From: Phycisphaeraceae bacterium
Lineage (GTDB): Bacteria > Planctomycetota > Phycisphaerae > Phycisphaerales > Phycisphaeraceae
Assembly (NCBI GenBank): GCA_040902585.1
Contig: JBBDXA010000231.1
Location: forward strand, 903-64,902
Length of the DNA: 64,000 nucleotides
Direction of reading: 5' to 3'
The position numbers were made by a program, and so were the translations under genes. The notes beneath the pieces are model-generated. The model was not told where the DNA came from. It worked only from the letters and a program-made list of their open reading frames with translations, and ran no database searches. Shown here in pieces: positions 6,747 through 53,989 of this stretch; within the stretch, counting starts at the first letter, position 1, and the number at the start of each line of letters is the position of its first letter.

Positions 6747-8198
6747 TCAATGAGAATCCGACTGTGCGGTGAGGACCGGATCCTTCAATCGTTTCATTTG
6801 CTCTTCGATCCGCTGGCTCAGGTCGGCGATGACCTGCTTTACCTTTGCATCGTCCGAAGATATGAGATTCTTCCGCTCGTCGGAATCGTTCGCGAGATCG
6901 TAAAGTTCATCCCGTCCCGGATTGAGCAGGTCGCGCACGAGCTTCCATTTCGGTGTGCGGTACATTCGCATGTGGGTCCGCGTCTGGTGCTTCGTCGAGT
7001 ACTCGCCGTAAAGGTCATTGTCCCACGGTATCGACTTGCCTTTCAAGAGCGGCGTGAAATCGCGGCCACGAACGCCCAGCTCCCTAGGGACTTCGACGCC
7101 CGCCATCGCGCACACGCTCGGAAAGACGTCAAGAAAGGTGATCGTCTGATCGACGACCTGCCCCGCCCTGGTAACACCCGGCCAGCGGATGGCGGCGGGC
7201 ACGCGTATCGACATGTCAAACATATTCGGCCGCTGTACTGCCGGCACGTTCTTCGTTCCTTCCGGCAGCGCGTCCTTCTTGAGAATCCAGTGCCCGTTGC
7301 CCTTGTGCCAGATACCGTTGTGACCCATGTTGTAGCCGTGATCGCTGGTGAAGATCACGATGGTGTTTTCCGCCAGCTTCTGGTCTTCGAGGAATTTCAT
7401 CAGGCGGCCGACGTTCCGGTCCACGCCGTGTACTGAGGCCAGGTATTCGCGCGTCACGCGCTTGACTCGCTCAGTGTCGAGCCCTGGGTAGTCGGGATGC
7501 GGCGGCACGGGATCCAGCTTCTCGAACGGTGCCCAGTCCTCCGGGGCGACTGGCAACCAGGCGGCGTGCGGCGCGCGGTAGTGCAGGCTCAATAGGAACG
7601 GCTTGTCCTGCGGCCGGTTCCGGATGAATTCGATCGCATGATCAGTAAGGATGTCGGTCGTCAACCCGCTCAGCTTGGTCTGCTTGCCGTCCTTCTCAAG
7701 CGTCGGATCCTTGGGCGACCAGCCTCCGCCGCGGTGCCCCATGAAGTAGTTGAATCCGGTCGCCGTCGGGTGGTGGGCATCCGTCAGGCCCAAATGCCAC
7801 TTGCCGATCAGGCCGGTGTGATAGCCGGCTCGCTGGAGCAGCTCGTACCACGTGACGGTTGAAGGATCGAGCCCGTGCTTCGGTTCGACATTCGGATTAA
7901 GCCAATCATGGATCCCCAATTCACTTCCGTACTTGCTGGTTGCCAGCGACGCGCGGGAGGGGCTGCACACGGGCGTCGGTGTGAAGCAGTTCTTCAGGAC
8001 CGCGCTCTGGGTAAAGAGCCGATCGAGGTTCGGCGTTATCGCATGCGTATGGCCTTCCCATCGCCCCAGCGCCCAAGGCCCCTGGTCATCCGTCATGATG
8101 AACAGCACATGGGGACGGTCGGCACGCACGACCGCTGGCAAGGATAGACCAATGAGCCATGCAGTTATCATCAACAGCAAGCTGAGAGAGCGGGGCAT
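6747..8198 (-). CDS. Formylglycine-dependent sulfatase (arylsulfatase family), secreted
   Basis: Signal peptide, FIMTDDQG, and the CSPSRASLATSKYG (C-x-P-x-R) motif. Confidence 0.92.
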   Translation of the reverse strand: MPRSLSLLLMITAWLIGLSLPAVVRADRPHVLFIMTDDQGPWALGRWEGHTHAITPNLDRLFTQSAVLKNCFTPTPVCSPSRASLATSKYGSELGIHDWLNPNVEPKHGLDPSTVTWYELLQRAGYHTGLIGKWHLGLTDAHHPTATGFNYFMGHRGGGWSPKDPTLEKDGKQTKLSGLTTDILTDHAIEFIRNRPQDKPFLLSLHYRAPHAAWLPVAPEDWAPFEKLDPVPPHPDYPGLDTERVKRVTREYLASVHGVDRNVGRLMKFLEDQKLAENTIVIFTSDHGYNMGHNGIWHKGNGHWILKKDALPEGTKNVPAVQRPNMFDMSIRVPAAIRWPGVTRAGQVVDQTITFLDVFPSVCAMAGVEVPRELGVRGRDFTPLLKGKSIPWDNDLYGEYSTKHQTRTHMRMYRTPKWKLVRDLLNPGRDELYDLANDSDERKNLISSDDAKVKQVIADLSQRIEEQMKRLKDPVLTAQSDSH

Positions 8199-8308
8199 GA
8201 GTTGACCTCCTTGATTTCGCAGCCATCATCATACAGGCCGGTATGGTCCGCTGATACACTGATGGCCCGTTTGCTCACTGGGCTCAATGGTGGGCGGAGA
8301 ATTCTCAA

Positions 8309-9813
8309 ATGCAAAGCACAATAAAAATAGTTCGCATCGTGCTGACGGCGAGCGTGACCCTTTTCGCACCGGTGGCTGCCGGCGACACATGGATCGTCGA
8401 TACGCAGGACGAATGGTCCGCTGCGGCCGCGGAGATGGAAGGCATCGAGATCAGTGACGGCGTGATATCGCCCACCGGCAACAGCGCCACCTTCGCCAGC
8501 AAGGTGAAGCGTTTGAATGCAAAGCGCAAGATCGCTTCGCTCATGCTTGAACAGTCGCCGATCTGGCAGAACTGGGAGCCGATCGACAACCTCGGACCGG
8601 CGAACATGGAGGACGCGCCTGTGTTCCTCTCCATCAGGCCGGGCAACTACTGGGCGTTTGGACGCTACGGCAAGGGCGGCAAGGGCGGCAGGAACGCTCC
8701 GCCCTTCAAGGCGCAGCCCGCGAAGCTGAAGGGCTTCGACATCCCGCTGCTGACCACGCCCTGGCCCAACCAGTTCGACGCACCCGGTGACTCGAAAAGA
8801 ATCTGGGCGGCTACAACGCCTGGCAGAGCCGCGACATGGTCAACTGGGTGCATCACGGCCCCGTCACCGAGGCCTTCTCCCGCTGGGTGACCTCGGCTGA
8901 GCACAAGGATGGCAAGGTCTACATCTATTACGACTACCCCAACGACCAGGACCCGCACGTTTACATCGACGAAGATCTGACCGACGGCAAGCCCGGCAAG
9001 AACATGGGCCTGGCGGTGCGTGATCCATCGCACGGCTCCGACGCCGGCTTCATTCGCGACAAGGAGGGACGGTTCCACGTGATCATCGAGGACTGGAGCC
9101 CGATCAACGCCAGCCAGCGGTCGTGGGATTCACCGCTGGCGGGCCACGCGGTCAGCGACGATGGCGTGAAGGATTGGAAGTTCCTCGCTCCCGCTGTGGA
9201 CAATCGAACCAAGGACACCGGCAAGATCGCTACGTACAAGCACCCGCACTGGCTCCAGCATCCGGACTGGAAGACGAACATTGGCGAGTACCAAGTGCAC
9301 GAGCCTGAACAGGAAGCCTACGGCGACTGGGCCGCGATCTGTGTCGGCACGCAGTATTACCTCTTCGGCGACTACGATCCGGCCGGCGGCGGACACATGA
9401 GTGTCGGATGGTTCACCAGCTCCGACATCAACAAGCCTTTCAAATGGTGCGACAAGATCGGCAACGGCCACCCGGATCCTGACATCGGCTTCGCCGAAGG
9501 GCGCTTCTACCTGTTCACGCAGCAGGCAACGGACTACGTGAGCACCGGCCCGTGGGTCGAGAAGGTCGAGGTTCGCGTCGGCGTCGATACGGATGGCGAC
9601 GGCAAGCTCGACAAGTGGACCGACTGGGCGGAAGTGAAAGAGGCCTACCAGCACCACAAGACGCTCGCCAAGCACGTGGACAGGTCGCCGGCGAAGGTCG
9701 AAATGTTGGATCTGCCTGCCGGTCATGCCGTCGGATTCGAGCTGCGCCTCACCGACACGACAAAGAACAAATCGAAACCAATGATTGATCGCGTCACCAT
9801 CACCCTGGAATAG
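8309..9813 (+). pseudogene. Secreted five-bladed beta-propeller glycoside-hydrolase-like gene (GH43/GH117-like) split by a frameshift near 8790-8800
   Basis: ORF 8309..8890 reads sensibly up to TTPWPNQFDAPGD, then becomes low-complexity. The second frame is open from 8791 and reads LEKNLGGYNAWQSRDMVNWVHHGP before its first ATG (8836). The SRDMVNW blade motif straddles that ATG. An A4 run lies at 8795-8798. Confidence 0.6.
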
Positions 9814-9836
9814 ATTGCCACGAACATTCGATCTCT

Positions 9837-10100
9837 TTGTGTCTCGCTACTTCTGTTCATCGCCGTAGCTCCCTCCGACGTGCGCGACGATCGCGGCTGC
9901 GTCAGTATCTGTCGTTCGGCGCGGGCAGGCCCGTCGGTCACTGGGGCGGGCGGTTCATCTGGCAGCTCGCCGACGCTGAGCAGTTGAGGGTGTGTTGGAG
10001 GGTCACGCCCAATGCGGTGCCTCGTGAGGTGGAACAGAAGTTGATTCAATCATTCGTAGCGGCTTTTGGAAGACGACCGTTCGCGAATCTGACTGACTAG
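9837..10100 (+). pseudogene. Possible C-terminal remnant of a GIY-YIG-like nuclease-family gene
   Basis: TTG-start ORF. The tail [36 protein letters not shown] resembles the distal half of GIY-YIG domains. The N-terminal GIY part is missing. Weak call. Confidence 0.25.
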
Positions 10101-10339
10101 CCAGGGGGCACAATGCACACGGAGACTTGCCCGGCGTGGTCTACAACAACACGATCACCACACTGCGTCTCACATAGCGCCTGCCCGTTGTAAATGTGCT
10201 CGACCGCCGCGAACCGATTCGCGTAGGCTTGGCGTCCGTTGCGGTGTACGTGGAGCCATCCACCTTCATCGCGGGCGAGGTCGACGCTGATCGAGGTGAA
10301 GCGGGCCAACGTGGTGTTTGTAGGGCTGGAGCATCACAC

Positions 10340-10425
10340 CAAATACCAGTATTTGAATTCAAAACATTTTTGCAGCGGAGACGCCGGCTTGTGGTCGTGC
10401 AAATCTGCAAATTTGCACATTTGCA
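10340..10425. repeat. AT-rich cluster of palindromes
   Basis: Read from the sequence: CAAATAC-CA-GTATTTG, TTTGAATTCAAA, and a 28-bp near-palindrome TGCAAATCTGCAAATTTGCACATTTGCA with a perfect TGCAAATTTGCA core at 10406-10417. The cluster lies just outside the island terminator. Confidence 0.7.
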
Positions 10426-10471
10426 GAATCATCAGCGCCCATCGGTCACCGGCGGCTCGTTGATCCGGGCG

Positions 10472-10506
10472 AAAAAAACTGCCCCACGGGATCAGCCGCA
10501 GGGCAG
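10472..10506 (-). terminator. Intrinsic terminator closing the RT cassette
   Basis: Minus-strand RNA CUGCCCUGCGG-CUGAUC-CCGUGGGGCAG forms an 11-bp stem (including 2 G-U pairs) followed by UUUUUUU. It begins about 55 nt after the ATPase stop. Confidence 0.7.
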
Positions 10507-10559
10507 TCAATGAAACTCGTTCGACGCAGGGCTGCAATACCGCGTTGTCTTCTTCCGAC

Positions 10560-11540
10560 TCAAGCCGCCTGACGCTTCGCCTTCAACTCGCGCATCCGGC
10601 GATAAAGCGAATCGGACGACTTGCCTGTGAGACTTGACCACTGCCTTTCCCGCTCGGCCCTCTGCTTGCGATCGGGGAACCGATCCAGAAGGTCCGAGAC
10701 GAATTTCAGCTCGTGGTCTTTCGTATCCTGACGTGTGACTGCCAACACGGGCTCGTCGTTGACATGTTCGTCCAGCATGGAGAGCACACGGTCCTCCCAT
10801 GTCTGGCAGGTCCGGTGATGCCGGCTGAACCTGAACGATGCCAAAGCCCTGTCCAATGTGCGAAGGTCGAACCTCTTCCCGGATTCTGCGACCAGGTCGA
10901 GAACCTTGAAGCATTCGCGGGCGGTCAGCCCGTCCTTGCCTCGAAGGCATCTCGCGCGGGTCATGGCGAGAATCTCGCCGTCAGAGGGGTCGTAATGAAA
11001 TGGGAACAGACGGCTGGAAACGGCCTTCGCAATCTCATCATTGTCCCGCATTCTTCGATTTGAAATCACGATGATGCTGCCGGTGAACAGAAACTCCTCT
11101 CGGCCGTCCCTGGCTGTGGTGTAGGTCACGAGCCGGGGTTTGCCAAGATCGCCGCCACATGCTGCCAGAAGAACCTGACGCGCCTCAGGCTTGACGAGAA
11201 ACGTATGCACATCGTCAAGCAGGAAGACGCTGCTCGGGTTCGCCTTGAGCGCGTCGAAAAGTCCACGGGGAGTCATCTGCGAATTGCAGAGCACCCATTT
11301 TATTTTCAACTGCTTGAGGATACCGGTGACCGTATGGGTCTTCCCGGTTCCCGGCCTGCCGTGGATGAACAGCCCGTTGGAAAATCCCAAGGCGGCACTC
11401 TTCACGTGGTCGCACAGGAGTCCCAGCTTCTGGCCCAAGGTCATGAGGTAGTCGCGATCATCGACCGACAGCAGACGGTGTTTCAAATCCTTTGCGGTAA
11501 TGCTTAAAACGGTACAAACGAAACGAAAAAGTTGACTCAC
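10560..11540 (-). CDS. AAA+ ATPase (Orc1/Cdc6- or IstB/DnaC-like core) with a basic C-terminal tail
   Basis: GTG start with AAAGGA upstream. Walker A GRPGTGKTH, Walker B VFLLDDVH, sensor-1-like IIVISN, SSRL Arg. C-terminal GKSSDSLYRRMRELKAKR. Confidence 0.85.
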   Translation of the reverse strand: MSQLFRFVCTVLSITAKDLKHRLLSVDDRDYLMTLGQKLGLLCDHVKSAALGFSNGLFIHGRPGTGKTHTVTGILKQLKIKWVLCNSQMTPRGLFDALKANPSSVFLLDDVHTFLVKPEARQVLLAACGGDLGKPRLVTYTTARDGREEFLFTGSIIVISNRRMRDNDEIAKAVSSRLFPFHYDPSDGEILAMTRARCLRGKDGLTARECFKVLDLVAESGKRFDLRTLDRALASFRFSRHHRTCQTWEDRVLSMLDEHVNDEPVLAVTRQDTKDHELKFVSDLLDRFPDRKQRAERERQWSSLTGKSSDSLYRRMRELKAKRQAA

Positions 11541-11785
11541 AAACTATCCTTTCTGGCCGGAGTGAACCCCGGTCGGATAAGGGCCGACTTTGACAGTCGG
11601 CATTCACGCACCTGTAGTGCGAATCCAAATGGCCGATGGAGCCGTTGCATGAGTGCAGCGGGCCATCGCCAAAGGATGGGTAGCAACGCGGTATTGACTT
11701 GCCAAAGAACATCGAACTGAGTCACCAATATGGTGGCAATGAATCGCGGCGGTGTCAACAGAAACTTGAGCGTCGGAGATGAGGA
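11541..11785 (-). ncRNA. Hairpin-rich 245-nt spacer upstream of the ATPase gene (candidate structured leader or ncRNA)
   Basis: On minus-strand RNA: GCCGACU-GUCAA-AGUCGGC (7 bp), a GGCGAUGG...CCAUCGGCC nested helix, and CACCA-UAU-UGGUG. A TTGACA box lies at 11753-11758 (minus). No convincing ORF. Confidence 0.3.
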
Positions 11786-12103
11786 TCAAACCGCAATCAG
11801 CCTCCGCAGTTCCGCCAACTGGTTCATCATCGAACAAGCACCAGCCATCTCGCGTCGCAGTTGACGCACAGATGGACCAGGCACCTTCTGGCGCTTCAGT
11901 CCGTTGAGCGCCACCTTTGCCTTGCCGGCGGCAGTGCGCGGCCCGGTGCTTCGCGTCCACGGCCGGTGCTTCAGCGCCGTCTCGCGCAGTTTCTGGCGGC
12001 CTTCAGGCGTGACCTTGTTACGCCTGGGCTGCGGCTTCGTAGCGGCGGGAGCGCCGCGCGGGCTGATCAAGTTGGAGGCGGTCATAGTCATCCAAGTGGG
12101 CAC
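11786..12103 (-). CDS. Small basic protein with a duplicated motif
   Basis: 105 aa. The duplicated motif is TPEGRQKLRETALKH and TAAGKAKVALNGLKR. By recollection (not searched) it matches the widespread small-protein motif (T/S)GPRTxEGKAxSxxNAxKHG. The start is uncertain (M1/M5/M7). Confidence 0.55.
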   Translation of the reverse strand: MPTWMTMTASNLISPRGAPAATKPQPRRNKVTPEGRQKLRETALKHRPWTRSTGPRTAAGKAKVALNGLKRQKVPGPSVRQLRREMAGACSMMNQLAELRRLIAV

Positions 12104-12665
12104 CTTTGTTTACTGAAGTTTGTTTGGTGTCGGCCGAGTGCATCGAGACCCTCCCCTCGCCGTCAGCGTCGTCGTTGCCCTCACGGGAGTAGGCCACGTC
12201 CTGCTTCGCTGCGATGTTCTGCTGACCGACGTGGGTGACCTGGTGGATGATCGTCGTTTTGCGGGGCTCATCGCTGTTTCGATACTTCTTCAACGCCAGC
12301 GCCAGACGCCGGACTTCGCTGATCAGACGACAGGCGGTGCTGCCGTACGCCTGGGCGGCCAGCGCATTGACGGCTCGGGTGGTTTGCTCCAAGAGCTGGC
12401 CGATGATCAGGTCGGCCTGCGCGATCTGGCGAACGATCACTTCTTCGATGGGATCGTCGATGCCGCCGGCACGGTGAGCGAAGTCCTCCATGTATGCACC
12501 GATGGTGGTGGGGCTGACATGCTTTTCCAACTTGACCGCGCCGGCGACGATGCTTGGGATGACCGCCTTTCGCATCGTTGCGACGCGACGGTCCCAGAGA
12601 GGATCTTCCTGGTCGGCGTTACTGGCCGGGGCGATTGTTGCGGGTGTGTTGTTGTGTTCGGGCAT
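12018..12665 (-). CDS. Hypothetical helical protein (215 aa)
   Basis: AAGGAAG SD about 10 nt upstream of ATG 12665. Coding-like composition. The 3' end overlaps the next ORF by about 70-86 nt. Confidence 0.6.
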   Translation of the reverse strand: MPEHNNTPATIAPASNADQEDPLWDRRVATMRKAVIPSIVAGAVKLEKHVSPTTIGAYMEDFAHRAGGIDDPIEEVIVRQIAQADLIIGQLLEQTTRAVNALAAQAYGSTACRLISEVRRLALALKKYRNSDEPRKTTIIHQVTHVGQQNIAAKQDVAYSREGNDDADGEGRVSMHSADTKQTSVNKGAHLDDYDRLQLDQPARRSRRYEAAAQA

Positions 12666-12742
12666 CCATGCTTCCTTTCTGATTTGGCTTCATTCAACGA
12701 AGTCCTTTTCTATGAAACGATAGGACGACTACTTCCCGCGCA

Positions 12743-14098
12743 TCAGCGGGCGTCGGCGGTCGCGGCATTGAGTATCAGACGATGGTCGAGCTTCTCGGCC
12801 TCGCTCTTGCGAAGACGACGCCAGCGGCCGTATGCGGCGAACCAGGCGTTCATCAGCGTCTCCCGCGATGGAAGCTCATCGAAGCCGGCCGCCGCCGCCG
12901 TGGTGTACACACGATCGAGCACGGCTTCGCGAGTTTCATCGCGGTAGCAGGGGCCGAGATATTCCAGCCAGCCGCGCACCGCGGCATCGGCGGCAACCGG
13001 CGGACAAGGCTTCTCGTGCGCTTCGATGAAGCCGTCCTCCAAACTGCACCAGGCCCGCTCGGCGATCGTGAACCTCAGTTGCCTGCCTTGACACTGGAGG
13101 TGGTAACCGAGGTAAATCACCTCCTGCCCTTCGGCCACGCGGCAGATATTTGATTCCGCATTTCCCTTGAGTTTCAAACCCGCCGATGTGACGAGCTGAC
13201 TCAGCGTGTCGTAGGCCATGTGGGCCTGGTCAACTGATTCGCAAGGCACCAGCAGATCGTCGAGATAGCTGAAAAGGGGTAACTGAGAGAGCCGATGCTG
13301 CCACGGCCGAGTGATGTGGTGGTCGCGGAAGATATGGGCCAGCAGCGGCGACAAGGAACTGCCCTGACGGACGCCGCGTTTCTTGCCGGTGTGTGAAATC
13401 AGGTTCACAAACTCGACGACGTTCCCGGCGTCGGGCAGCCACGAACTCAGCGCCCGCATCAGACGGCTGTGAATGATCTGGTCGTAGAACGCTTTGATGT
13501 CCTCGACAATCCACACCCAGTGCCTCCTGCGCTTCGCCAGCGCCAGTACCGTCGCCAGCGCGTGCTGAGCACCGCGGCCAGGCCGGGCAAACGAAAACGG
13601 AGCCAGCATCGGATCGAGCACCGGCTGGATGATGAGCCTCACATCACCTGCGACAATCCGATCGGGGACCGTCTGAATCGTCAACGTCCGGGTTTCGATG
13701 CTGCCGGGACGCTTGGGGATCGGGCACAGGCGGGAAGGGCCGGGACGATAGGTTTTATCACGCACCGCTTTCGCCAGAGCGCGGGACATTGACCAACCCT
13801 CCTCAAGGGTCAGGTCAGAGGGACGCAGTCCATCGACACCGGCAGCGTTGCCACCGTCTGACAGAATGTGATCCAGTGAACATCGCATCATCCGGGCGTC
13901 AGCGATGCGGCGTTTGAGGAAGGGGCCGACACTCGGAAGCTGTCCTATCCGTGCTCCGAGAACATGCAGACGATGGACGGTCAGCAGCCGGCGATATCGG
14001 CCGTCATTCTGCAGCGCGGGATCGCTCTTGCCCTCAAGAAGCCGATTCAGTTGGAAATTGTGACATTCAGTCTCGGCGTACACGTTGTTTCCTCGCAT
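12743..14098 (-). CDS. Reverse transcriptase, group-II-intron-like (no En/D domain)
   Basis: Motifs in order: AAGVDGL; CPIPKRPGSIETRTLTIQTVPDRIV; SFARPGRGAQHAL; EDIKAFYDQIIHSRL; GVRQGSSLSPLLAHIF; FSYLDDLLV (YxDD); GLKLKGNAESNI; VIYLGYHL; thumb-like VRGWLEYLGPCY. Confidence 0.92.
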   Translation of the reverse strand: MRGNNVYAETECHNFQLNRLLEGKSDPALQNDGRYRRLLTVHRLHVLGARIGQLPSVGPFLKRRIADARMMRCSLDHILSDGGNAAGVDGLRPSDLTLEEGWSMSRALAKAVRDKTYRPGPSRLCPIPKRPGSIETRTLTIQTVPDRIVAGDVRLIIQPVLDPMLAPFSFARPGRGAQHALATVLALAKRRRHWVWIVEDIKAFYDQIIHSRLMRALSSWLPDAGNVVEFVNLISHTGKKRGVRQGSSLSPLLAHIFRDHHITRPWQHRLSQLPLFSYLDDLLVPCESVDQAHMAYDTLSQLVTSAGLKLKGNAESNICRVAEGQEVIYLGYHLQCQGRQLRFTIAERAWCSLEDGFIEAHEKPCPPVAADAAVRGWLEYLGPCYRDETREAVLDRVYTTAAAAGFDELPSRETLMNAWFAAYGRWRRLRKSEAEKLDHRLILNAATADAR

Positions 14099-14313
14099 CT
14101 TGGAAAGTGCCGAGCCGGAGATTATTCCGGCCCGGCTAAAGCTGGCCTTTCGCCAGAAATCGCAATGCTGGTCGGCGGAGCCGCCAGCGAACTACTCAGT
14201 CATTCCCTTATTCGTTTCGCATGAGGGGTATGTGTAGTCCGTTGACGTCTGATCCATACCGGCTCCTTATGGGGAGGGAGAGGACATGGACCCAGGCCTT
14301 ACGGCCGACCGTC
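14099..14313 (-). ncRNA. Hairpin-rich 215-nt leader immediately upstream of the RT (candidate RT-associated ncRNA)
   Basis: On minus-strand RNA: GGCC-GUAA-GGCC, GCUGGCGG-CUC-CGCCGACCAGC, CUGGC-GAAAG-GCCAG, and GCCGGGCCGGA-AUAAUC-UCCGGCUCGGC ending about 15 nt before the RT ATG. No ORF. Confidence 0.35.
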
Positions 14314-15795
14314 TCAGGTATATGTCACGTACCTCCTTTCTTTCGCTGTCTCAGGAAGGACAGACAAGGCATTCCCCTTCTGTTTCTTCTTCCTGTTCTT
14401 CCTTTGACCCGTTTGATGCGGGTCCTTATGCCGGGGTTGAATCCGGTTTCGGGAAGAAGAGGTGACCGGGATGCCGCCTATAAGGATGACAGCCCGTGAT
14501 GTACTGATCCTGTTTCCGGCGGCGGTTGCGCCCAACCGGTCATAAGGCCCGAAGGGCCGATGACCGTCATGGGCGGTCCCGCCGGTGGCGTCGATCAGGA
14601 CATCGGTGTTGACGCCTTGCCCGGCCACATAGCCGAGCGTTGTGATCTGGTGGAAATAAACGGTCCTGCCGGGGTTCTCTTCGCCGGGTTCGCTGCTGAC
14701 AAGATCTTCATGCCGGCTGCGCAACATCCAGTCAGGCAGACGCTGAAGAAGCTGGCGGCCGTGCTCGACGTTCTCGACCAGGACGGTGACTCCGGCGTCG
14801 TTGAGGGTGTATTTGTCCTGATCAAGCAGAAGGCCGGACCTTCTCAGCGTCGCGATGTCGCCGGACGCTGCCGCGATAGCGACCGAGGCGACGATGTCAT
14901 TGCGGTTGTCGTTGAGCCAGATGCCATCGCGTTTCTTTTCGCAGGCGTTGCCGGCGATCACACTGGGCTTGGTGCGGGGTTCCAGGCGATAGACAGGTGT
15001 TGGGGGTTCGGGATGGGCATGGACCTCGGGGTAGATCACAGGACCGGCCAAGCCTTCAATGATGAGGCCGCGGCGATGAGCAGGGCCGGCGGAGTTGTTA
15101 TGGATCGCATAGACACGAGTCGGCCCTTTGGTGGCCTGACAGATTTGAGTGATGGCGTGCCTGCCGGTGAACTCATGGGCGTTGACGAGGATGATGATCT
15201 CTGCGCCGTCAGGGTTGTAAGACTTGATGGCGGGTAGTGTGCCTACGACGACGCGAGCGGGCCTGTCAGCCTTGCCGGCGCGGAGGCCGATGTATTCATT
15301 CGCGTGATCCGGAAGCGCCCGCCACAAACCGCGTGCGTCATGAGTACGCATGGTGAGGATGAGCACGGCCGCGTTGGAGAACGTCCTGGCGATGTCGGCG
15401 ATCGTCTCGGCGGTCTGGAGACGGGGGACAATGATCTGTCCGCCGGGGTTGGCTTTGATGGCGTGAAAGAGATCGGGATCGACATCCGTGTGGAACGGAT
15501 CGGCGTCGCCGCGAAGGTGATACGGCCACTGCCGCTGGTCGTTGATGGTGACGTTGAAGCCAAGCTCATTGAGGACGGCGGCGGCGCGGGGGACGAGGCC
15601 GGGGCGGATGATGATCCGGTTGTCAATTCTCTTCTCGAAAAGAGAATCTTGCGTGAAGACTTCGCGCACGCCGTACTTGCCGCCGGGCTCAAACTCGCGA
15701 ACAGGAATCGTCAGCGACGACAACAGCGCGGAGTCGGCCGGGACGACGACGGCACCACTGTGATTGATCGTGATGGATGCTTTCTGTTTCTTCAT
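14314..15795 (-). CDS. Hypothetical 493-aa protein, alternating alpha/beta pattern (faintly SF2-helicase-like), no Walker A motif
   Basis: Long clean ORF with no GxxxxGK(S/T). VLVENVEHGRQLLQRLP and TTLGYVAGQGVNTDVLIDATGG resemble a helicase C-lobe only loosely. A paralog fragment lies at 53790-53970. Confidence 0.75.
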   Translation of the reverse strand: MKKQKASITINHSGAVVVPADSALLSSLTIPVREFEPGGKYGVREVFTQDSLFEKRIDNRIIIRPGLVPRAAAVLNELGFNVTINDQRQWPYHLRGDADPFHTDVDPDLFHAIKANPGGQIIVPRLQTAETIADIARTFSNAAVLILTMRTHDARGLWRALPDHANEYIGLRAGKADRPARVVVGTLPAIKSYNPDGAEIIILVNAHEFTGRHAITQICQATKGPTRVYAIHNNSAGPAHRRGLIIEGLAGPVIYPEVHAHPEPPTPVYRLEPRTKPSVIAGNACEKKRDGIWLNDNRNDIVASVAIAAASGDIATLRRSGLLLDQDKYTLNDAGVTVLVENVEHGRQLLQRLPDWMLRSRHEDLVSSEPGEENPGRTVYFHQITTLGYVAGQGVNTDVLIDATGGTAHDGHRPFGPYDRLGATAAGNRISTSRAVILIGGIPVTSSSRNRIQPRHKDPHQTGQRKNRKKKQKGNALSVLPETAKERRYVTYT

Positions 15796-15845
15796 AACGG
15801 CAATCGTGGTGAGCGTTCCTGTGCAAAGTCATTTGCCGCCTTGGG

Positions 15846-16772
15846 CTACGCTTTCCCTCCCGGCTGACGAGAAATCCGCCGGGGTTTACGCTTGCCGACC
15901 TCCGCGCTTTCAGTCTCCTGTTCCTGCTTCGGGCCGCGAAGATTCAGGACCTTCCGAGCGCGTTCAAGGTTCTTAGCGAGGCGATTCTTGACCATGGCGA
16001 TGCCGGATTCCATCGTCTCAACCGACTTGAGTGACTCCGCCATCTTGGAGACCATCGCGTCAGTGAACCGGTCGGGCTCGGCTTCATCGAGTTCATCGAA
16101 CACGGCTTTGACCCAGATCTCGACTTTGTTGCTGACGGAATTGGCGACGCGGGTCATGTCCTCGATGCCGGCGGCGGGAGACGACGGCGTCTTCGGCTTG
16201 CGACCGTTTCGGTGGGCCTTGGGGGCGGGAACGAATTTCTCGGAAATGCGGGCGGCCAGGTCGCGGACGGAGAGCGACTCCTTGAAGATGGCTTCGATGA
16301 GTTTGTTGCGATCACGTTTGCTCCGGACAACAGCCAGCTCAAGAAGATGCCCTCGTGTGATGCGCTCGCCGTTGGCCATCTCGCGATGACCAAGGGCTTT
16401 CATGTCCTCGCGCTTGAAGGTGACGGCGATGGTGCGCAGGGCATACAGACGGCTTTCCGAAACGCCGAGGTATTCGGCCAACTTCTTGACGGCGTTGCTC
16501 CCGTAGGCCACCTCTTCCTCAAGCACCTGAAGAACCAGTTTGCCCTGTTCCCATGTCACCGCAAGCATCGAGACGCTGCCCAGGCCTTCTAGATGGGTAA
16601 GTTTCTTGGCGACCTCTTTAAGGGGCTGGTCCATCTCGTTGAAGGCAGCCTCCCGCGCCGCGAGCACGTTGACGGCGTGCGAGGCGATTTTGTCGTTAAC
16701 AACACTGCCATCGACGACGGCTGCTTCATCGGTGCGAGTTTCAAGTTTGAGTGCGGGCATTGCGGACTCCAT
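15846..16772 (-). CDS. Hypothetical HTH-containing protein (308 aa), ParB/KorB-like HTH region only
   Basis: YGSNAVKKLAEYLGVSESRLYALRTIA and ITRGHLLELAVVRSKRDRNKLIEAIFKESLSVRDLAARI look like HTH segments. No GERRxR ParB box. Basic C-terminal tail. Confidence 0.7.
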   Translation of the reverse strand: MESAMPALKLETRTDEAAVVDGSVVNDKIASHAVNVLAAREAAFNEMDQPLKEVAKKLTHLEGLGSVSMLAVTWEQGKLVLQVLEEEVAYGSNAVKKLAEYLGVSESRLYALRTIAVTFKREDMKALGHREMANGERITRGHLLELAVVRSKRDRNKLIEAIFKESLSVRDLAARISEKFVPAPKAHRNGRKPKTPSSPAAGIEDMTRVANSVSNKVEIWVKAVFDELDEAEPDRFTDAMVSKMAESLKSVETMESGIAMVKNRLAKNLERARKVLNLRGPKQEQETESAEVGKRKPRRISRQPGGKA

Positions 16773-16863
16773 GAAAGGGTGGTCGGTTGTTCAAAAGTCT
16801 TTGGGGAAAGAGAATTTGCGGAGGCAGCTAAAAGCGGACTCCGACTTCCAATGAGATTCGGAT

Positions 16864-17103
16864 TTACTCTGTGCGAACAGGTTGGTGTTTGGCAGGGGCA
16901 ATTGATTCGCGGGCAGAAAGCCACGCGTTGATTTCATCCACCTTGAAGCGAATCGCGGGCCTGGGGCCATCGCTCAAGACCACCGGCTGGATTTCCGATG
17001 CACGCAACCACCGTCGCACCGAACTTGGATCGGCATCCAGCTGCTGCGCCAGCGTTTTCAGTGCGACGAACTGACGTGCGGCTTGTGTTTCGGATTCGTT
17101 CAT
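16864..17103 (-). CDS. AlpA/excisionase-family HTH DNA-binding protein
   Basis: 79 aa. LKTLAQQLDADPSSVRRWLRASEIQPVVL..IRFKVDEINAWL is the typical MerR-like excisionase HTH. Confidence 0.8.
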   Translation of the reverse strand: MNESETQAARQFVALKTLAQQLDADPSSVRRWLRASEIQPVVLSDGPRPAIRFKVDEINAWLSARESIAPAKHQPVRTE

Positions 17104-17223
17104 TGTGAGTGTCTCCGTGAATCAAGCAGTCAGCCTCGAATGCTGACTCTGCTGCAAATACCGATTGTCCAATTCGATCGAGCCGTAGATACAGCGCCAA
17201 TGCAGCGCATATAAAAAACTTGC

Positions 17224-17574
17224 CTAATTCATCCTTTGCGGACGCCGCGACTGCGGAATTCGGTAGCCGACTCTTCGCTTTCCTTCGAGTCCGTAGGGTT
17301 TGAGCTGAGGGAGAATGTGCGTCGTCAACGTGCTCTGTTCGATATAAATGTCTCGTTCGCGAAGTGCTTCAATAATCTGCTTGCCGGTCAGTCCCCGATG
17401 TGCCGGCACGCTGAGAAGTAGCTCATAAACGGTGGCGGCCCTTTGACTGAGCATGGGGAGATCCGCGGCGACACCGGGAGATTGTTCTCTGCCCTCTGCG
17501 GTCGGCTCAGCGGCCAAGTCGCTCTCCACTTTCGTCTCGGTTGTTGATCGTGACTCAGAATTGCGCTGGGGCAT
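17224..17574 (-). CDS. Winged-helix DNA-binding protein (116 aa)
   Basis: ORF 17224..17799 trimmed to MPQRNSE, 1 nt after the upstream stop. VYELLLSVPAHRGLTGKQIIEALRERDIYIEQSTLTTHILPQLKPYGL. Confidence 0.65.
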   Translation of the reverse strand: MPQRNSESRSTTETKVESDLAAEPTAEGREQSPGVAADLPMLSQRAATVYELLLSVPAHRGLTGKQIIEALRERDIYIEQSTLTTHILPQLKPYGLEGKRRVGYRIPQSRRPQRMN

Positions 17575-17575
17575 G

Positions 17576-17911
17576 TTATATGCCCTCCTTCGCAACACGC
17601 GCACTCGCCGCAGCAATCGCGCCATCACGCTGCGAGGCAGTGCGGGAGCGGGGAGCCTCCATCGCAGTCGTCGACGCCCCCTCGGCGAAATGTTCCTGAT
17701 CTGCCGAGGCGACCGCTTCAAAAAAATGAAAGTGGTCGTCTTCTGTGGTAAGCAGCTTGCCTCCGACGCGATACAGCTTGAGGTGAACGCGGCGACCACC
17801 GCGAGTCTTCAGACCCTTGCGGCCCCAGCGCCACAAAGCATTTGGACTTGGACACGGCGCAGGACACAACCGTGCCGCGCATGAAAGTTTGATGAGTTTT
17901 GTAGGGGTCAC
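17576..17911 (-). CDS. DUF1580-like HTH protein
   Basis: LIKLSCAARLCPAPCPSPNALWRWGRKGLKTRGGRRVHLKLYRVGGKLLTTEDDHFHFFE matches my recollection of the planctomycete DUF1580 pattern (xSxxTxWRW..G..L......GG...T). Proposed GTG start at 17911; start uncertain. Confidence 0.55.
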   Translation of the reverse strand: MTPTKLIKLSCAARLCPAPCPSPNALWRWGRKGLKTRGGRRVHLKLYRVGGKLLTTEDDHFHFFEAVASADQEHFAEGASTTAMEAPRSRTASQRDGAIAAASARVAKEGI

Positions 17912-18651
17912 TGAACTGCTCAGTGAGCCGCGCGAGATGGCAACATCAATAAAAAAACCCGGCACATCACTCGCGCAGCCGAACCGTAAGGCGTCAGTTC
18001 CACGGGGTTCGGCTCGCGGGATGTCCGGCCGCGAACAAGGCTTGAACTGATCTACTGCTGTAAGGATAGCGAAGGGACCAAGACAGTTCAACAGGTTTCA
18101 GCTTTTTCAATCACACCTTTTGGTTGTGATTCTCTCAAACCATCAACCGACCCTGCGAATGGCTTCGATGGCTTTGGCAATATTGGGTTCGGTGTAAACC
18201 TGAGTGGGCTTCAACGAACAACAGTAGGCTGACCGTCATCGCGGGCGTGCTAGACAACACCACCGCCGCCCGAATCGCTTGGCCATGATCAGCGGCCTTC
18301 CCGAAAGATCCTAGCCTGATTTCTTGAGATGGGAACTGACACGATTACACCGGAACGACCTGCAATGCAGCCATGTTGCTTGACCCGAATGTTGACCCTT
18401 ATTCGGGCAGTTTTCAGGCCAAAATCATCAATAATTCGGGTCAGCCGAATTCTCCGAAGTCACGCTCATTCCATTGCGCCGCCAACGGTTAAAGACATAC
18501 GATGAACTGACGCAGTCGCCCCGGTCGAGACCCTTTTTTCATTTGCAGGCCGTGCAAACGTTCATATCATCATATTTTTAAGCTAGTTGCGCGCCCAGTT
18601 GACAGGGAGGGGTATAAGCGGGTCTTTCGTTCAGCCCTTAAACACAGGGCT

Positions 18652-19683
18652 TTACGTATTGATGCGCAAAGGCATGCGATCTGGTTTGGGGAGCGCGATG
18701 AGGCGGTCTTCCGCTTCCTCCACGTTAATCACCCCCTGCGCGCAAGCGCGTAGGATTTGCTGAGCCGATTCCTGCTCCAGGACCTGATCGATCCGCCGCG
18801 CGATCCTGGCGCGCAGGCGACGAGCCAGGGCCTGCGCAGCGTCTTCGTGCCGTCCGTGTTCGGGTCTCTGCCGCGCGGCGAGCGTTTCGAGCGTGTGCCA
18901 CAGGCGATCGATGCCTTCGCCGCCGCGGGCGCTGAGCTGGAGAAACTCGGGGCCGGCGGTGCCGTCATGGGAGGGCGCATTCAGCGCGATGGCGGCGCGG
19001 ATGGTCGCGGCGGTGCGCGGGGTGCCGGGCAGGTCGGCCTTGTTAAGCACGATCATGTCGGCCCACTCGGCGATGCCGGCTTTGTCCCACTGCACGTCAT
19101 CGCCGGTCTCCGGCGATGACACGAGTACAAGCAGCCGGCACAGGCTGCGTGCGGCTATCTGGTCCTGGCCCGTGCCGATCGATTCCAGGAGGATCACGTC
19201 GAAGCCGAAGCGATCGAGAAGTTCGATCACATCGGCCGCCGCGCCGGCCACGCCGCCGCTGCTGTCGTCACCCGGGCGCGTGGAGATGCTGCGGATGAAG
19301 GGCGGGTCCGCGGCGCTGTTGGAGTCATCCGTCTGCATGCGCACGCGGTCGCCCAGCAGCGCCCCGCCGGTGCGCGCGCTGGAAGGATCGCACGCCAGCA
19401 CCGCGATGCGCTTGCCTATGTCGAGCACGTGGCGCAAGAGCGCGCCGATGAGCGTGCTCTTGCCCGCGCCGGCCGCGCCGGTGATGCCGATCGTGAGGGC
19501 GGGCGAGGTTGCCGGCGGAAGCTGCGCGAAGATCGCCGCCGCGTCCTGGCCTTCATCGATGCGGCTGATGAGGCGCGCCAAGGCGCGACGGTCGCGCCGC
19601 TGGAATGCCCGCGCGAGTGCGTCAGGTGCGCCGCGGGCGTCCATCGCCTCGGAGGCGTCAAGTTGAGCCGGTGTGTTCCTCAT
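18652..19683 (-). CDS. meaB: Methylmalonyl-CoA mutase-associated G3E GTPase (MeaB/ArgK)
   Basis: GITGAAGAGKSTL P-loop, LLESIGTGQ, VLNKAD. Overlaps the upstream B12-domain gene by 26 nt. Confidence 0.9.
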   Translation of the reverse strand: MRNTPAQLDASEAMDARGAPDALARAFQRRDRRALARLISRIDEGQDAAAIFAQLPPATSPALTIGITGAAGAGKSTLIGALLRHVLDIGKRIAVLACDPSSARTGGALLGDRVRMQTDDSNSAADPPFIRSISTRPGDDSSGGVAGAAADVIELLDRFGFDVILLESIGTGQDQIAARSLCRLLVLVSSPETGDDVQWDKAGIAEWADMIVLNKADLPGTPRTAATIRAAIALNAPSHDGTAGPEFLQLSARGGEGIDRLWHTLETLAARQRPEHGRHEDAAQALARRLRARIARRIDQVLEQESAQQILRACAQGVINVEEAEDRLIALPKPDRMPLRINT

Positions 19684-20089
19684 GACTGGCTCGGGTTTGC
19701 GCCAAGTCCGTGACGCGCTGAATGATTTCCTGCGCCGGTGTGCCGGGGCCGAAGACTGCCGCGACGCCCATGCGGTTCAGCTGGGGCACATCATCGTCCG
19801 GTATGCTCCCGCCGAGGATCAAGGGGATATCGTCGCAGCCCTCGGCCTTCATCGCCTCCAGCAACTTGGGCAGCAACGTCATGTGCGCGCCCGAAAGCAG
19901 GCTGACGCCGATGACGTCGGCATCCTCCTCCAGCGCGATGCGGGCGACGCCGCCGGGCGTGGGCCACAGGCCCGTGTAGATCACCTCCATGCCCGCGTCG
20001 CGCAGAATGCGGGCCACCACGCGGATGCCGCGGTCATGCCCATCCAACCCGAGCTTGGCCAGCACAACACGGATGCGATACTGTCTCAT
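19658..20089 (-). CDS. Acyl-CoA mutase cobalamin-binding small subunit
   Basis: Trimmed to MRQYRIRVV (AAGGAG SD upstream). LGLDGHDRG contains the DxHxxG B12 motif. Confidence 0.88.
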   Translation of the reverse strand: MRQYRIRVVLAKLGLDGHDRGIRVVARILRDAGMEVIYTGLWPTPGGVARIALEEDADVIGVSLLSGAHMTLLPKLLEAMKAEGCDDIPLILGGSIPDDDVPQLNRMGVAAVFGPGTPAQEIIQRVTDLAQTRASHEEHTGST

Positions 20090-53970: not shown

Positions 53971-53989
53971 CCGCCGGGCGCTATTCCGC

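What the first reader, a model, noticed from the sequence alone, without database searches (positions are those of the whole stretch)
10560..17911. Candidate undescribed RT-based system: 9-gene co-directional cassette around a stand-alone group-II-like reverse transcriptase
All nine minus-strand ORFs run head to tail: DUF1580-like HTH, wHTH (1-nt gap), AlpA-like HTH, a 308-aa HTH protein, a 493-aa protein without Walker A, the RT, 215-aa and 105-aa proteins (overlapping), and an AAA+ ATPase. The clearest intrinsic terminator I could find comes only after the last gene (10472-10506). I saw no integrase, transposase, nuclease, capsid or intron-ribozyme features. The RT has every catalytic motif intact. 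RT plus NTPase plus small accessory proteins plus structured non-coding leaders is the general grammar of retron, DRT and Abi-type anti-phage systems. However, this RT looks group-II-like rather than retron, UG or DGR, and I do not recognise the partners (493-aa, 215-aa, 105-aa) from any described system. The cassette sits between unrelated sugar/sulfate genes and a catabolic supercluster, looks less GC-rich by eye, and has AT-rich palindromic flanks.
Basis: partly seen in the sequence, partly recalled or inferred. Interest (0 to 1): 0.85.

Follow-up and report, generated by a model that had tools for sequence, protein, structure and literature searches.

The report
Reverse transcriptase, RNA and pseudo-helicase island module

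Summary
Nine minus-strand ORFs (10560-18091) run head to tail and end at a strong terminator (10477-10508). The RT has intact catalytic motifs. The window has no integrase, no intron ribozyme and no tRNA.

Across about 28 independent loci, all assignable ones from Planctomycetota, the conserved unit is not the nine genes. It is the 493-aa protein, a structured RNA element, and the RT. RT directly follows the 493-aa homolog in 20 of 23 informative loci.

The 493-aa protein models as an SF2 (XPB-like) helicase fold, but its family lacks Walker A and DExx motifs.

I found a conserved three-hairpin element next to the RT (window 14095-14191). Its pairing is supported by compensatory changes, and it matches no Rfam family.

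A true ParB-family protein usually precedes the pair; the window has an unrelated 308-aa protein there. Tyrosine integrases occur in six relatives, three directly after a tRNA gene. Two relatives fuse RNase H to the RT.

The AAA+ ATPase, AlpA-like and wHTH genes are not conserved partners.

Most likely this is an integrase-less island copy carrying an RT, RNA and pseudo-helicase module that makes cDNA. Whether it serves defence or the island's own life cycle is unresolved.

The parts
10477..10508 (-). Intrinsic terminator ending the cassette
   Evidence: 13-bp stem (8 GC pairs), 6-nt loop and T-run.
10560..11540 (-). AAA+ ATPase, 326 aa. Accessory or cargo gene, not a conserved partner of the RT.
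   Evidence: AAA/AAA_16 hits and phrog_1250 (unknown function) E 1e-10. No PDB sequence relative. No homolog in any related locus.
11786..12103 (-). p105, small basic protein overlapping the end of p215 in another frame
   Evidence: No family hit. Homolog in Novipirellula aureliae locus L005 at 6888-7217, E 1e-16, with the same overlap arrangement.
12018..12665 (-). p215, unknown protein
   Evidence: No family hit. Homolog at L005 7141-7761, E 6e-12.
12743..14083 (-). [quoted passage not shown] 446 aa from GTG 14083; the ORF extends to ATG 14098.
   Evidence: RVT_1 2e-17 and TIGR04416 131 bits. Best PDB relatives are group II intron RTs (5hhl 1.7e-18, 6ar1) and Cas6-RT-Cas1. RT0, motif 3 D, motif 4 QG and YLDD are conserved across 15 clade members.
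14095..14191 (-). Conserved structured RNA element. H0 hairpin 14167-14188 (outer stem + GGC-UCC-GCC). GAUUUC linker. H1 14142-14156 (CUGGC-GAAAG-GCCAG). H2 14109-14136 (long GC hairpin with a weak U tail).
   Evidence: H0 covariation on an ungapped 14-locus alignment. The H0 model has one significant hit in the 64-kb window, E 1.7e-5. The full model finds non-seed loci at the expected place. 96% of cells are paired and 16 of 20 pairs have compensatory changes. No Rfam match.
14192..14313 (-). Rest of the p493-RT spacer. Structured, but conserved only with the closest relative, L007.
   Evidence: The whole spacer folds with z -4.06. Block conservation with L007. No shared sequence with more distant loci.
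14314..15795 (-). p493: SF2-helicase-like protein lacking ATPase motifs. It is the constant partner of the RT.
   Evidence: 2129 cluster representatives at E<=1e-3. No Pfam hit and no PDB sequence hit. The AF2 model (pLDDT 57) matches XPB, UvsW, RadD and DHX36 (Foldseek E 6e-10). A P-loop string occurs in 1 of 151 members.
15846..16772 (-). p308, helical HTH-like protein occupying the position that a ParB-family protein holds in most relatives
   Evidence: Weak hits: DUF1016_N 6e-4, HTH_ParB 0.012, Noc 0.015, PDC-S02 9e-7. Homolog in L014. Not homologous to the ParB-like family by hhalign. AF2 single-sequence model unusable, pLDDT 48.
16864..17103 (-). p79, AlpA/excisionase-type HTH
   Evidence: HTH_17 3.7e-5; phrog_66 'excisionase and transcriptional regulator' 1.6e-7.
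17224..17574 (-). Predicted winged-helix protein (116 aa from ATG 17574, inside ORF 17224-17799)
   Evidence: ORF. No family hit. No homolog in related loci.
17576..18091 (-).
   Evidence: DUF1580 E 0.081. Homolog at L020 1169-1381, E 1e-10, just upstream of ParB-p493, and that homolog hits DUF1580 at 1.8e-4. DUF1580 genes also occur in L001 and L015.

Best explanation
Window 10.4-18.1 kb is a copy, without integrase, of a Planctomycetota-restricted family of integrative genomic islands. [quoted passage not shown]

Shown here:
- The p493 and RT genes are adjacent across distant lineages.
- The RNA element carries compensatory base changes.
- The RT catalytic residues are intact.
- Relatives carry integrases (three next to a tRNA gene), ParB-family proteins and DUF1580 genes.
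- Some members have RNase H fused to the RT, or a HIRAN gene just after it.

Inferred:
- The element is part of the operon transcript. It lies 5' of the RT in one subgroup and at the RT's 3' end in the other.
- The RT recognises it, in the way group II RTs bind DIVa and retron/DRT RTs bind their ncRNA, and uses it or the adjoining RNA as primer and template to make cDNA.
- p493 acts as an ATP-independent nucleic-acid-binding partner, either a chaperone, a sensor or a scaffold for the RNA-cDNA complex.
- H2 plus its U tail also acts as an internal terminator or attenuator that sets the RT dosage.

The most likely biological role is an island-borne conflict system (anti-phage or anti-MGE) of the retron/DRT type. 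The genes downstream of the RT are variable: here p215/p105 and an AAA+ ATPase; elsewhere RNase H, HIRAN or a DUF4062-TPR protein. They would be interchangeable effector or processing parts, or simply cargo.
For: Core pair. p493 homologs lie directly upstream of the RT on the same strand in the window and in L001, L003, L005, L006, L007, L009, L011-L016/L023, L024-L027, L029, L030/31 and L032. That is 20 of 23 informative loci. Of the three exceptions, two carry transposase insertions next to p493 (a DDE transposase in L008, IS66 in L010) and the third (L017) has HIRAN after p493.

Taxonomy. All 9 genome hits, plus the window (Phycisphaeraceae) and Novipirellula, are Planctomycetota.

RNA element.
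- H0 on an ungapped 14-locus alignment: 80% of cells paired, covariation 0.378 against 0.174 shuffled (0/500), 6 of 8 pairs compensatory.
- The H0 model has a single significant hit in the 64-kb window.
- A model seeded from 4 loci recovers L003, L004, L012, L025 and L016 just upstream of their RT genes.
- H0+H1+H2: 96% paired, 16 of 20 pairs compensatory, covariation 0.599 against 0.198 shuffled (0/500) and <=0.093 when slid.
- G-U pairs occur on the gene strand.
- No Rfam match.

RT. It is active-type and group-II-like. RNase H is fused to it in L012 (124 bits) and L005. HIRAN follows it in L013 and L015.

Island context. Integrases occur in six loci, three directly after tRNA genes. The window has an excisionase-like p79 and low GC3.

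Defence neighbours. Lamassu LmuB (540 bits) lies beside the module in L005, and the candidate PDC-S60 beside it in L001. A published review reports that 25% of G2L RTs lie near defence genes (PMC8632793).
Against: No experiment has been done and no RNA or cDNA data exist. The RT-RNA interaction, the cDNA product and the defence role are all inferred.

H2 with its U tail could be an ordinary terminator, and terminators also covary. The H1/H2 pair statistics come from a model-fitted alignment.

The module travels with island backbone genes (integrase, DUF1580, ParB), which fits an island housekeeping function as well as it fits cargo.

No effector-like toxin is conserved. p493 and the ParB-like protein have no PADLOC hit. 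No relative was found in viral contigs, phage records or plasmids.

The p493 model has low confidence (pLDDT 57). All related loci were found through p493 or the RT, so the sample cannot show how often such islands lack the module.
Confidence: 0.45

Rival explanations
1. The module serves the island's own life cycle. ParB-family protein, helicase-like p493 and RT together would maintain, replicate or transfer the excised island, for example by RT-primed or RNA-templated DNA synthesis after excision. It would not be a defence system.
For: The module is linked to integrase, DUF1580 regulators, an excisionase-like HTH and a true ParB-family protein. The ParB-like profile matches Spo0J at 5e-18 across the N domain and HTH. 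The gene order (integrase, regulators, AlpA, then replication-like genes) resembles satellite and island layouts. The trio is the most conserved part of the islands, whereas defence cargo is usually the variable part.
Against: p493 has no ATPase motifs, so it cannot unwind DNA. ParB is missing in about half of the loci: the window, L014, L016/L023, L026 and L030. L016/L023 has the pair next to host RtcR/Ro60 genes, with neither ParB nor integrase in view. The window copy keeps all module genes intact although its integrase is gone, which suggests the module is useful to the host on its own.
Confidence: 0.22
2. The RT is a domesticated DNA-repair polymerase like G2L4, working with repair-type partners (XPB/RadD-like p493, HIRAN, a nearby RecQ) in end joining or damage tolerance.
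For: It is a G2L-type RT without an intron. p493's fold matches repair helicases XPB, UvsW and RadD. HIRAN sits after the RT in L013 and L015, and RecQ lies upstream in L013. G2L4 functions in microhomology-mediated end joining (bioRxiv 10.1101/2022.03.14.484287).
Against: G2L4 acts alone and has no conserved partner or RNA element. Here a sequence-conserved hairpin RNA always accompanies the RT, and RNase H is fused to it in two members. Both point to RNA-templated synthesis. The module lies on mobile islands, not at a core chromosomal locus.
Confidence: 0.1
3. One reading: all nine genes form one operon-encoded RT defence system in which the AAA+ ATPase and the small proteins are obligatory components.
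For: The genes are co-directional with short gaps and a single strong terminator after the last gene. p215/p105 recur near the module in L005.
Against: The ATPase, p79 and p191 have no homolog in any of about 28 related loci. In L005 p215/p105 are on the opposite strand upstream of the module. Genes downstream of the RT differ from locus to locus. A terminator-like hairpin sits inside the 'operon', just before the RT.
Confidence: 0.1
4. The hairpin element is only regulatory DNA or RNA, such as a terminator/attenuator, an mRNA stabiliser or a protein operator. It would have no role as RT substrate, and the RT would work on other nucleic acids.
For: H2 is followed by a U-rich tail in most loci: L003, L004, L011, L015 and L016. 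A Shine-Dalgarno-like box and the RT start follow within 25 nt, as expected for a read-through attenuator.
Against: The H0 loop and inner stem (GGC-UCC-GCC) are invariant between loci whose RTs are only 30-45% identical, while its outer stem covaries. That is more than a terminator needs. The element keeps its place beside the RT even when it moves from the 5' to the 3' side.
Confidence: 0.25

Closest known systems
Free-standing group-II-intron-like RTs (G2L lineage, e.g. Pseudomonas aeruginosa G2L4)
   Same: The RT is closest to group II intron RTs, with an RT0 motif and a thumb/X region, and has no intron ribozyme. It is not retron, UG/Abi or DGR type.
   Different: This clade is tied to a pseudo-helicase partner and a conserved hairpin RNA, sits on integrative islands, is restricted to Planctomycetota, and is sometimes fused to RNase H. 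G2L4 acts alone in DNA repair and has YIDD; this RT has YLDD and its clade has variable [YFVW]xDD. Placement among the published G2L clades could not be tested.
Mobile group II introns
   Same: Same RT lineage. A hairpin just upstream of the RT start recalls DIVa, the RT-binding site that overlaps the start of the intron ORF (this comparison rests on my own knowledge).
   Different: No domain V/VI or any Rfam intron model in the window or in 12 related loci. No endonuclease domain. The RT scores 131 bits against a 300-bit family cut-off.
Retrons and DRT systems (DRT2, DRT9, DRT10/UG17): RT + adjacent structured ncRNA + accessory or effector protein
   Same: A stand-alone RT, a conserved structured RNA immediately beside it, an accessory protein, carriage on mobile islands, and variable downstream genes.
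   Different: Different RT lineage: best UG model 63 bits, retron model 14 bits. Different RNA. The partner is an ATPase-dead SF2-like protein, not SLATT, an ATPase-nuclease or the like (DRT10 description in bioRxiv 10.64898/2026.04.29.721553). No phenotype is known.
tRNA-integrating genomic islands and satellite-like elements (tyrosine integrase, HTH regulators, AlpA-type excisionase)
   Same: Relatives show tRNA followed by integrase, then DUF1580/HTH genes and then the module. The window has an AlpA-like excisionase HTH and lower GC3.
   Different: The window copy has no integrase, no tRNA and no significant flanking repeats. An RT-centred core module is not a known feature of such islands.
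XPB / UvsW / RadD-type SF2 helicases (for p493)
   Same: An N-terminal beta-rich domain followed by two RecA-like alpha/beta domains. Foldseek E 6e-10 to archaeal XPB.
   Different: No Walker A or DExx motif anywhere in the family. No sequence-level match to Pfam or PDB. It has its own conserved motifs (WxNxxRN, VESxEH, LPxW).

Membership tests
Mobile group II intron | Ribozyme RNA (domains I-VI, especially domain V) flanking the RT ORF | tested here: not met
   No Rfam hit at E<=1 in window 8000-20000. No intron family at gathering score in 12 related loci.
Mobile group II intron | RT/maturase reaching the curated family score | tested here: not met
   TIGR04416 scores 131.4 bits against a cut-off of 300. 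Pfam GIIM is not detected, although the alignment covers model positions 4-334 of 353.
G2L (group-II-like free-standing RT) | RT most similar to group II RTs but without intron RNA | tested here: met
   Best HMM and PDB matches are group II RTs. No ribozyme.
G2L (group-II-like free-standing RT) | Branches inside a named G2L clade in a reference RT phylogeny | not testable with these tools
Retron | Retron-type RT | tested here: not met
   NF038233 scores 13.6 bits against a cut-off of 235. PADLOC retron RT_VI E 3.5e-4.
Retron | msr/msd RNA bounded by a1/a2 inverted repeats with a branching G | tested here: inconclusive
   The adjacent RNA is three local hairpins. No long-range inverted repeat brackets the spacer. 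The branching G cannot be assessed.
DRT / UG-Abi RT systems (including DRT10) | RT of a UG/Abi group at family-level score, plus the cognate partner (e.g. SLATT for DRT10) | tested here: not met
   Best UG model is RT_UG17 at 62.7 bits, against 122 bits for the generic group-II-type model. Drt3a scores 23.6 against a cut-off of 200. No SLATT or other DRT partner among the nine proteins.
Diversity-generating retroelement | Template/variable repeat pair and Avd next to the RT | tested here: not met
   No direct repeat longer than 25 nt in 9500-18800. No DGR-type RT hit.
CRISPR-associated RT | Fusion to or adjacency with cas1/cas6 and a CRISPR array | tested here: not met
   The only match to the RT-Cas1 model Cas1_IIIb (PADLOC, 67 bits) covers RT residues 111-334, i.e. 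the RT domain itself. No neighbouring protein hit a Cas model, and there is no repeat array.
tRNA-integrating island with tyrosine recombinase | Integrase next to a tRNA gene, with flanking att repeats | tested here: inconclusive
   In relatives, tRNA followed by integrase is met in L009, L015 and L026, but no attR repeat lies within the fetched flanks. In the window there is no integrase or tRNA and the flank repeats are not significant.
SF2 helicase (p493) | Two RecA-like domains | tested here: met
   Foldseek matches XPB, UvsW, RadD and DHX36 at probability 1.0 and E down to 6e-10, from a low-confidence model (pLDDT 57).
SF2 helicase (p493) | Walker A (GxGKT) and DExx ATPase motifs | tested here: not met
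   No such conserved columns. A P-loop string occurs in 1 of 151 members and a DExD/H-like string in 7 of 151.
ParB family (gene upstream of p493) | ParB N-terminal domain with the GxxRxRA box, plus an HTH | tested here: inconclusive
   Met in relatives: the profile matches Spo0J at 5e-18, ParB and Noc, and DGHQRxRA is conserved. Not met for the window's p308: hhalign probability 0.1%, with only weak HTH_ParB (0.012) and Noc (0.015) hits.

The most novel reading that the evidence does not exclude
The islands might be a prokaryotic retroelement-like class. Their RT would initiate on the conserved H0-H1-H2 structure at the 3' end of the operon transcript, as retroplasmid and non-LTR RTs do on their own RNA 3' ends, and would copy island RNA into cDNA that feeds island propagation or maintenance. 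A tyrosine recombinase, and in some members RNase H, would complete a toolkit that parallels eukaryotic DIRS-type tyrosine-recombinase retrotransposons.
Probability: 0.05. Interest if true: 0.95.

Novelty: new variant of a known kind. Interest (0 to 1): 0.72.

Why it matters
Free-standing group-II-like RTs are the least understood bacterial RTs; only G2L4 has an assigned function.

This work defines a whole clade with three fixed parts: the RT, an ATPase-dead SF2-like partner, and a conserved hairpin RNA. Together they form a testable unit. The partner family has about 2,100 cluster representatives and no annotation.

If the RT makes cDNA from the adjacent RNA, this would be an RT-ncRNA system that arose from the group II lineage independently of retrons and UG/DRT systems. 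Its partner would show what an inactivated helicase can do in such a complex.

It also gives a first handle on integrative islands in Planctomycetota, a phylum whose mobile elements and defence systems are almost unstudied. Three cultured strains that could be tested are Novipirellula aureliae Q31b, Tundrisphaera lichenicola P12 and Singulisphaera acidiphila DSM 18658.

Tried and rejected
- Group II intron: rejected. There is no ribozyme in the window or in relatives.
- Retron, DGR, CRISPR-RT and DRT10 membership: rejected on RT type and missing partners.
- p308 as a divergent ParB: not supported by hhalign. The single-sequence AF2 model is unusable at pLDDT 48, so no fold search was run on it.
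- Integrase relic at 18146-18205: tempting, because it shares a C-terminal 'VY...RVG*' and the stop position with the L015 integrase. It is not significant (tblastn E 0.29, hmmsearch E 2.1).
- Flanking att repeats: the best local match, 10262-10285 against 18232-18255, is no better than chance. The shared words CATTTGCAG..ATCATCA at 10418 and 18540 occur only there, but the pattern was chosen after seeing them.
- attR copies of the tRNA 3' ends in L009, L015 and L026: none within the fetched flanks.
- Phage or plasmid origin: no p493 relative in IMG/VR contigs, GenBank phages or PLSDB plasmids.
- Two searches were wasted. The first genome scan, with the 4-sequence alignment, found nothing. The third word-indexed protein search, with a 119-sequence profile, returned only the same four proteins.
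- Second leader 11541-11785: z -2.3 and no comparators, so left open.
- Conserved sequence upstream of H0 across distant loci: none seen.
- Literature searches for DUF1580 or for ParB + RT modules in Planctomycetes found nothing relevant.

Full report
**1. The observation**

They are:
- AAA+ ATPase, 10560-11540
- p105, 11786-12103, overlapping p215 (12018-12665) by 86 nt
- RT, 12743-14098
- p493, 14314-15795
- p308, 15846-16772
- p79, 16864-17103
- a wHTH ORF, 17224-17799 (116 aa from ATG 17574, 1 nt after the stop of the next gene)
- a DUF1580-like ORF, 17576-18091

A 13-bp-stem terminator with a T-run lies at 10508-10477 on the minus strand.

Family scans gave these results. The RT hits RVT_1 (2e-17) and group II RT/maturase TIGR04416 (131 bits, cut-off 300). 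The ATPase gets generic AAA hits plus phrog_1250. p79 hits HTH_17 and an excisionase PHROG (1.6e-7). p308 gets weak DUF1016_N, HTH_ParB and Noc hits. p171 gets a weak DUF1580 hit (0.081). p493, p215, p105 and the wHTH protein hit nothing.

No Rfam family matches within 8000-20000 at E<=1. The window has no tRNA.

G+C is 0.55-0.62 in the cassette and 0.66-0.69 to its right. GC3 is 0.55-0.76 in the cassette against 0.77-0.84 in flanking genes.

**2. Source and rarity**

The RT and p493 are 100% identical to proteins of a Phycisphaeraceae MAG. The word-indexed search found only five close RT relatives and three p493 relatives. A full HMMER scan with a p493 profile found 2129 cluster representatives at E<=1e-3 and 351 at E<=1e-30.

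None of the ten members tested has a Pfam domain. The family profile has no PDB sequence relative.

**3. What is conserved around the RT**

A genome scan gave 9 loci, all Planctomycetota: Singulisphaera acidiphila, Tundrisphaera lichenicola, Isosphaeraceae, Phycisphaerales, Pirellulales, Planctomycetaceae and Planctomicrobium. A metagenome scan gave 17 more. I compared them all by tblastn, phmmer and ORF clustering.

A p493 homolog lies directly upstream of the RT, on the same strand, in 20 of 23 loci that hold enough sequence. There are three exceptions. L008 is degenerate: p493 is split, a transposase sits beside it, and an RT fragment lies 6 kb away. L010 has an IS66 transposase right after p493. 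In L017, HIRAN follows p493.

A protein of one family precedes p493 in about half of the loci: L001, L005, L009-L013, L015, L017 and L020. It lies on the opposite strand in L003. Its profile matches Spo0J at 5e-18, ParB, Noc and KorB across both the N-terminal domain and the HTH, and it carries a DGHQRxRA box. It is therefore a true ParB-family protein.

The window has p308 in that position instead. p308 has one homolog (L014) and is not related to the ParB group by profile comparison.

p215/p105 recur only in Novipirellula (L005), with the same frame overlap. p171 recurs in L020, next to ParB-p493, and that homolog hits DUF1580. The ATPase, p79 and the wHTH protein recur nowhere.

**4. Island context**

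Tyrosine integrases occur in L001, L009, L014, L015, L026 and L029. In L009, L015 and L026 the integrase directly follows tRNA-Leu, tRNA-Cys and tRNA-Gln respectively.

DUF1580 genes, a Bro-N protein and a DUF927 protein lie between the integrase and the module, or after it.

Two loci have defence genes beside the module. L005 has Lamassu LmuB (540 bits) plus a UvrD helicase. L001 has the candidate PDC-S60.

No relative was found in viral contigs, phage records or plasmids.

The window has no integrase. A 20-codon resemblance to an integrase C-terminus at 18146-18205 is not significant. No significant flanking repeat was found.

I read the window as an island copy that lacks its integrase but whose other genes are all intact.

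**5. The RT**

Its best solved relatives are group II intron RTs (5hhl 1.7e-18, 7uim, 6ar1), then Cas6-RT-Cas1 and LtrA. UG/DRT and retron models score far lower.

Fifteen clade members keep the RT0 motif, the motif 3 aspartate, the motif 4 QG and [YFVW]xDD.

Two members carry a C-terminal RNase H domain: L012 at 124 bits and L005 at 29 bits. In L013 and L015 a HIRAN protein follows the RT.

No intron RNA is found in 12 related loci. Relatives start MYE/MYK 25 nt after the last hairpin, behind an AGGA/GAGG box. The window's equivalent start is GTG 14083.

**6. p493**

The AF2 model built from four sequences has low confidence (pLDDT 57). It shows an N-terminal beta-rich domain followed by two alpha/beta domains.

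Foldseek returns SF2 helicases consistently: archaeal XPB at 6e-10, T4 UvsW, RadD, DHX36 and eIF4A.

The family has no Walker A or DExx columns. Its conserved residues are W293, R298, N299, E341, H345, W356, T386 and G405. A P-loop string occurs in 1 of 151 members.

I conclude that p493 is an SF2-derived protein that binds nucleic acid without hydrolysing ATP. The fold assignment is inferred from a weak model. The motif loss is read directly from the sequences.

**7. A conserved RNA element**

*Spacer.* The 215-nt p493-RT spacer folds better than shuffles (z -4.06). It shares near-identical blocks with L007, whose proteins are only 53% (p493) and 65% (RT) identical.

*Layout.* Across loci the last roughly 95 nt before the RT have the same layout:
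- H0: a hairpin with a variable outer stem, an invariant GGC-UCC-GCC core and a one-base bulge
- a linker with (G)AUUU(U)C
- H1: 5-6 bp
- H2: a long GC-rich hairpin with a U-rich tail

*Window coordinates.* H0 is 14167-14188, H1 is 14142-14156 and H2 is 14109-14136.

*H0 statistics.* On an ungapped 14-locus alignment chosen only by the core word, H0 has 80% of cells paired. Six of eight pairs show compensatory changes. The covariation score is 0.378, against 0.174 for shuffles (0/500) and at most 0.20 when slid. A covariance model of H0 gives one significant hit in the whole 64-kb window (E 1.7e-5; the next best is 0.24).

*Full model.* A model of H0+H1+H2 seeded from four loci recovers five non-seed loci exactly upstream of their RT genes, at E 4e-4 to 0.03. 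On that model-fitted alignment, 96% of cells pair and 16 of 20 pairs have compensatory changes. The covariation score is 0.599, against 0.198 shuffled (0/500) and at most 0.093 when slid.

*Strand.* G-U pairs occur on the gene strand. That fits an RNA, or single-stranded DNA, of that strand.

*Subgroup B.* In a second subgroup (L009, L013, L014, L015, L026 and L005), H0 sits at or just after the end of the RT domain instead. In L013 and L015 it is again followed by an H1-like and an H2-like hairpin, and in L015 also by a U tail.

*Known families.* Nothing in Rfam 15 matches the element.

**8. Mechanism**

The following are shown:
- the gene pair
- the RNA structure
- the intact RT active site
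- the ATPase-dead partner
- the island context
- RNase H or HIRAN in some members

The rest is inferred. The RT binds the element on its own operon transcript and makes cDNA from it or from adjoining RNA. p493 holds or senses the nucleic acid. H2 also attenuates transcription into the RT gene. RNase H or HIRAN, where present, process the hybrid or the DNA 3' end.

I think the likeliest role is a conflict system of the retron/DRT type carried by islands (0.45). An island life-cycle role (0.22) and a G2L4-like repair role (0.10) remain open.

A purely regulatory reading of the hairpins (0.25) is compatible with several of these roles.

**9. Comparison with known systems and novelty**

By RT type this is a G2L-like RT. 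It fails the defining tests for a mobile group II intron, a retron, a DGR, a CRISPR-associated RT and DRT10.

It works like the RT + ncRNA + accessory-protein systems, but with a different RT lineage, a different RNA and a partner not seen in those systems.

Literature searches found no description of DUF1580, of this partner family, or of a ParB-RT module in Planctomycetes.

I rate it a new variant of a known kind. Interest is 0.72. The comparative evidence is strong and it points to cultured strains that can be tested. The function, however, is still only inferred.

Noticed in passing
window 53854-53991 (minus strand), in the gap between ORFs 51689-53542 and 53990-55900: A roughly 35-aa relic, 'AYERKRDGIWMNDGRNDRVASVAMA', reproduces the most conserved p493 motif (hhalign against the family: probability 95%, E 3e-8; tblastn E 3e-6). 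It looks like the remnant of a second, decayed copy of the element about 38 kb from the intact one.
   Followed up: partly
window 18146-18205 (minus strand): The reading frame ends 'VYTEPNIAKAIEAIRRVG*'. It resembles the C-terminus (including the catalytic Tyr position and the stop) of the L015 and L001 integrases, and lies exactly where an integrase would be expected. It is not statistically significant (E 0.29 and 2.1).
   Followed up: yes
window 10418-10441 and 18540-18600: The words CATTTGCAG, ATCATCA and GCGCCCA occur in the same order on both sides of the cassette, with GTGCAAA also nearby on each side. The combined pattern CATTTGCAG..ATCATCA occurs nowhere else in the window. The pattern was chosen after the fact, and local alignment of the two flanks is not significant.
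   Followed up: partly
window 12018-12103; L005 7141-7217: p215 and p105 overlap by 86 nt in different frames. Their homologs in Novipirellula aureliae overlap by 77 nt in the same way. This could be a conserved overlapping gene pair or a programmed frameshift fusion.
   Followed up: no
L012 5719-7590; L005 11556-13496: Two members of the RT clade carry a C-terminal RNase H domain (124 and 29 bits). To my knowledge RT-RNase H fusions are unusual for bacterial group-II-like RTs. In L005 the H0 hairpin lies inside the ORF, between the RT and RNase H domains.
   Followed up: partly
L016 / L023 (Planctomicrobium), L023 6222-13198: Here the p493-RNA-RT unit sits directly after the host RNA-repair regulator RtcR and a Ro60/TROVE gene. 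No ParB or integrase is in view.
   Followed up: no
L005 5688-5816 (minus strand): A SAM-I/IV riboswitch (58.9 bits, above the gathering score) lies upstream of a 203-aa gene, within the variable region next to the module.
   Followed up: no
L005 1-4716: A Lamassu-type LmuB (540 bits) with CTD6/MC2-domain genes and a UvrD helicase lies about 4.3 kb upstream of the ParB-p493-RT module in Novipirellula aureliae.
   Followed up: partly
window 11541-11785 (minus strand): The 245-nt spacer before the ATPase gene is moderately structured (z -2.3). It contains a 'GGCUCCAUCGGCC' stretch that loosely recalls the H0 core, but neither covariance model hits it.
   Followed up: partly
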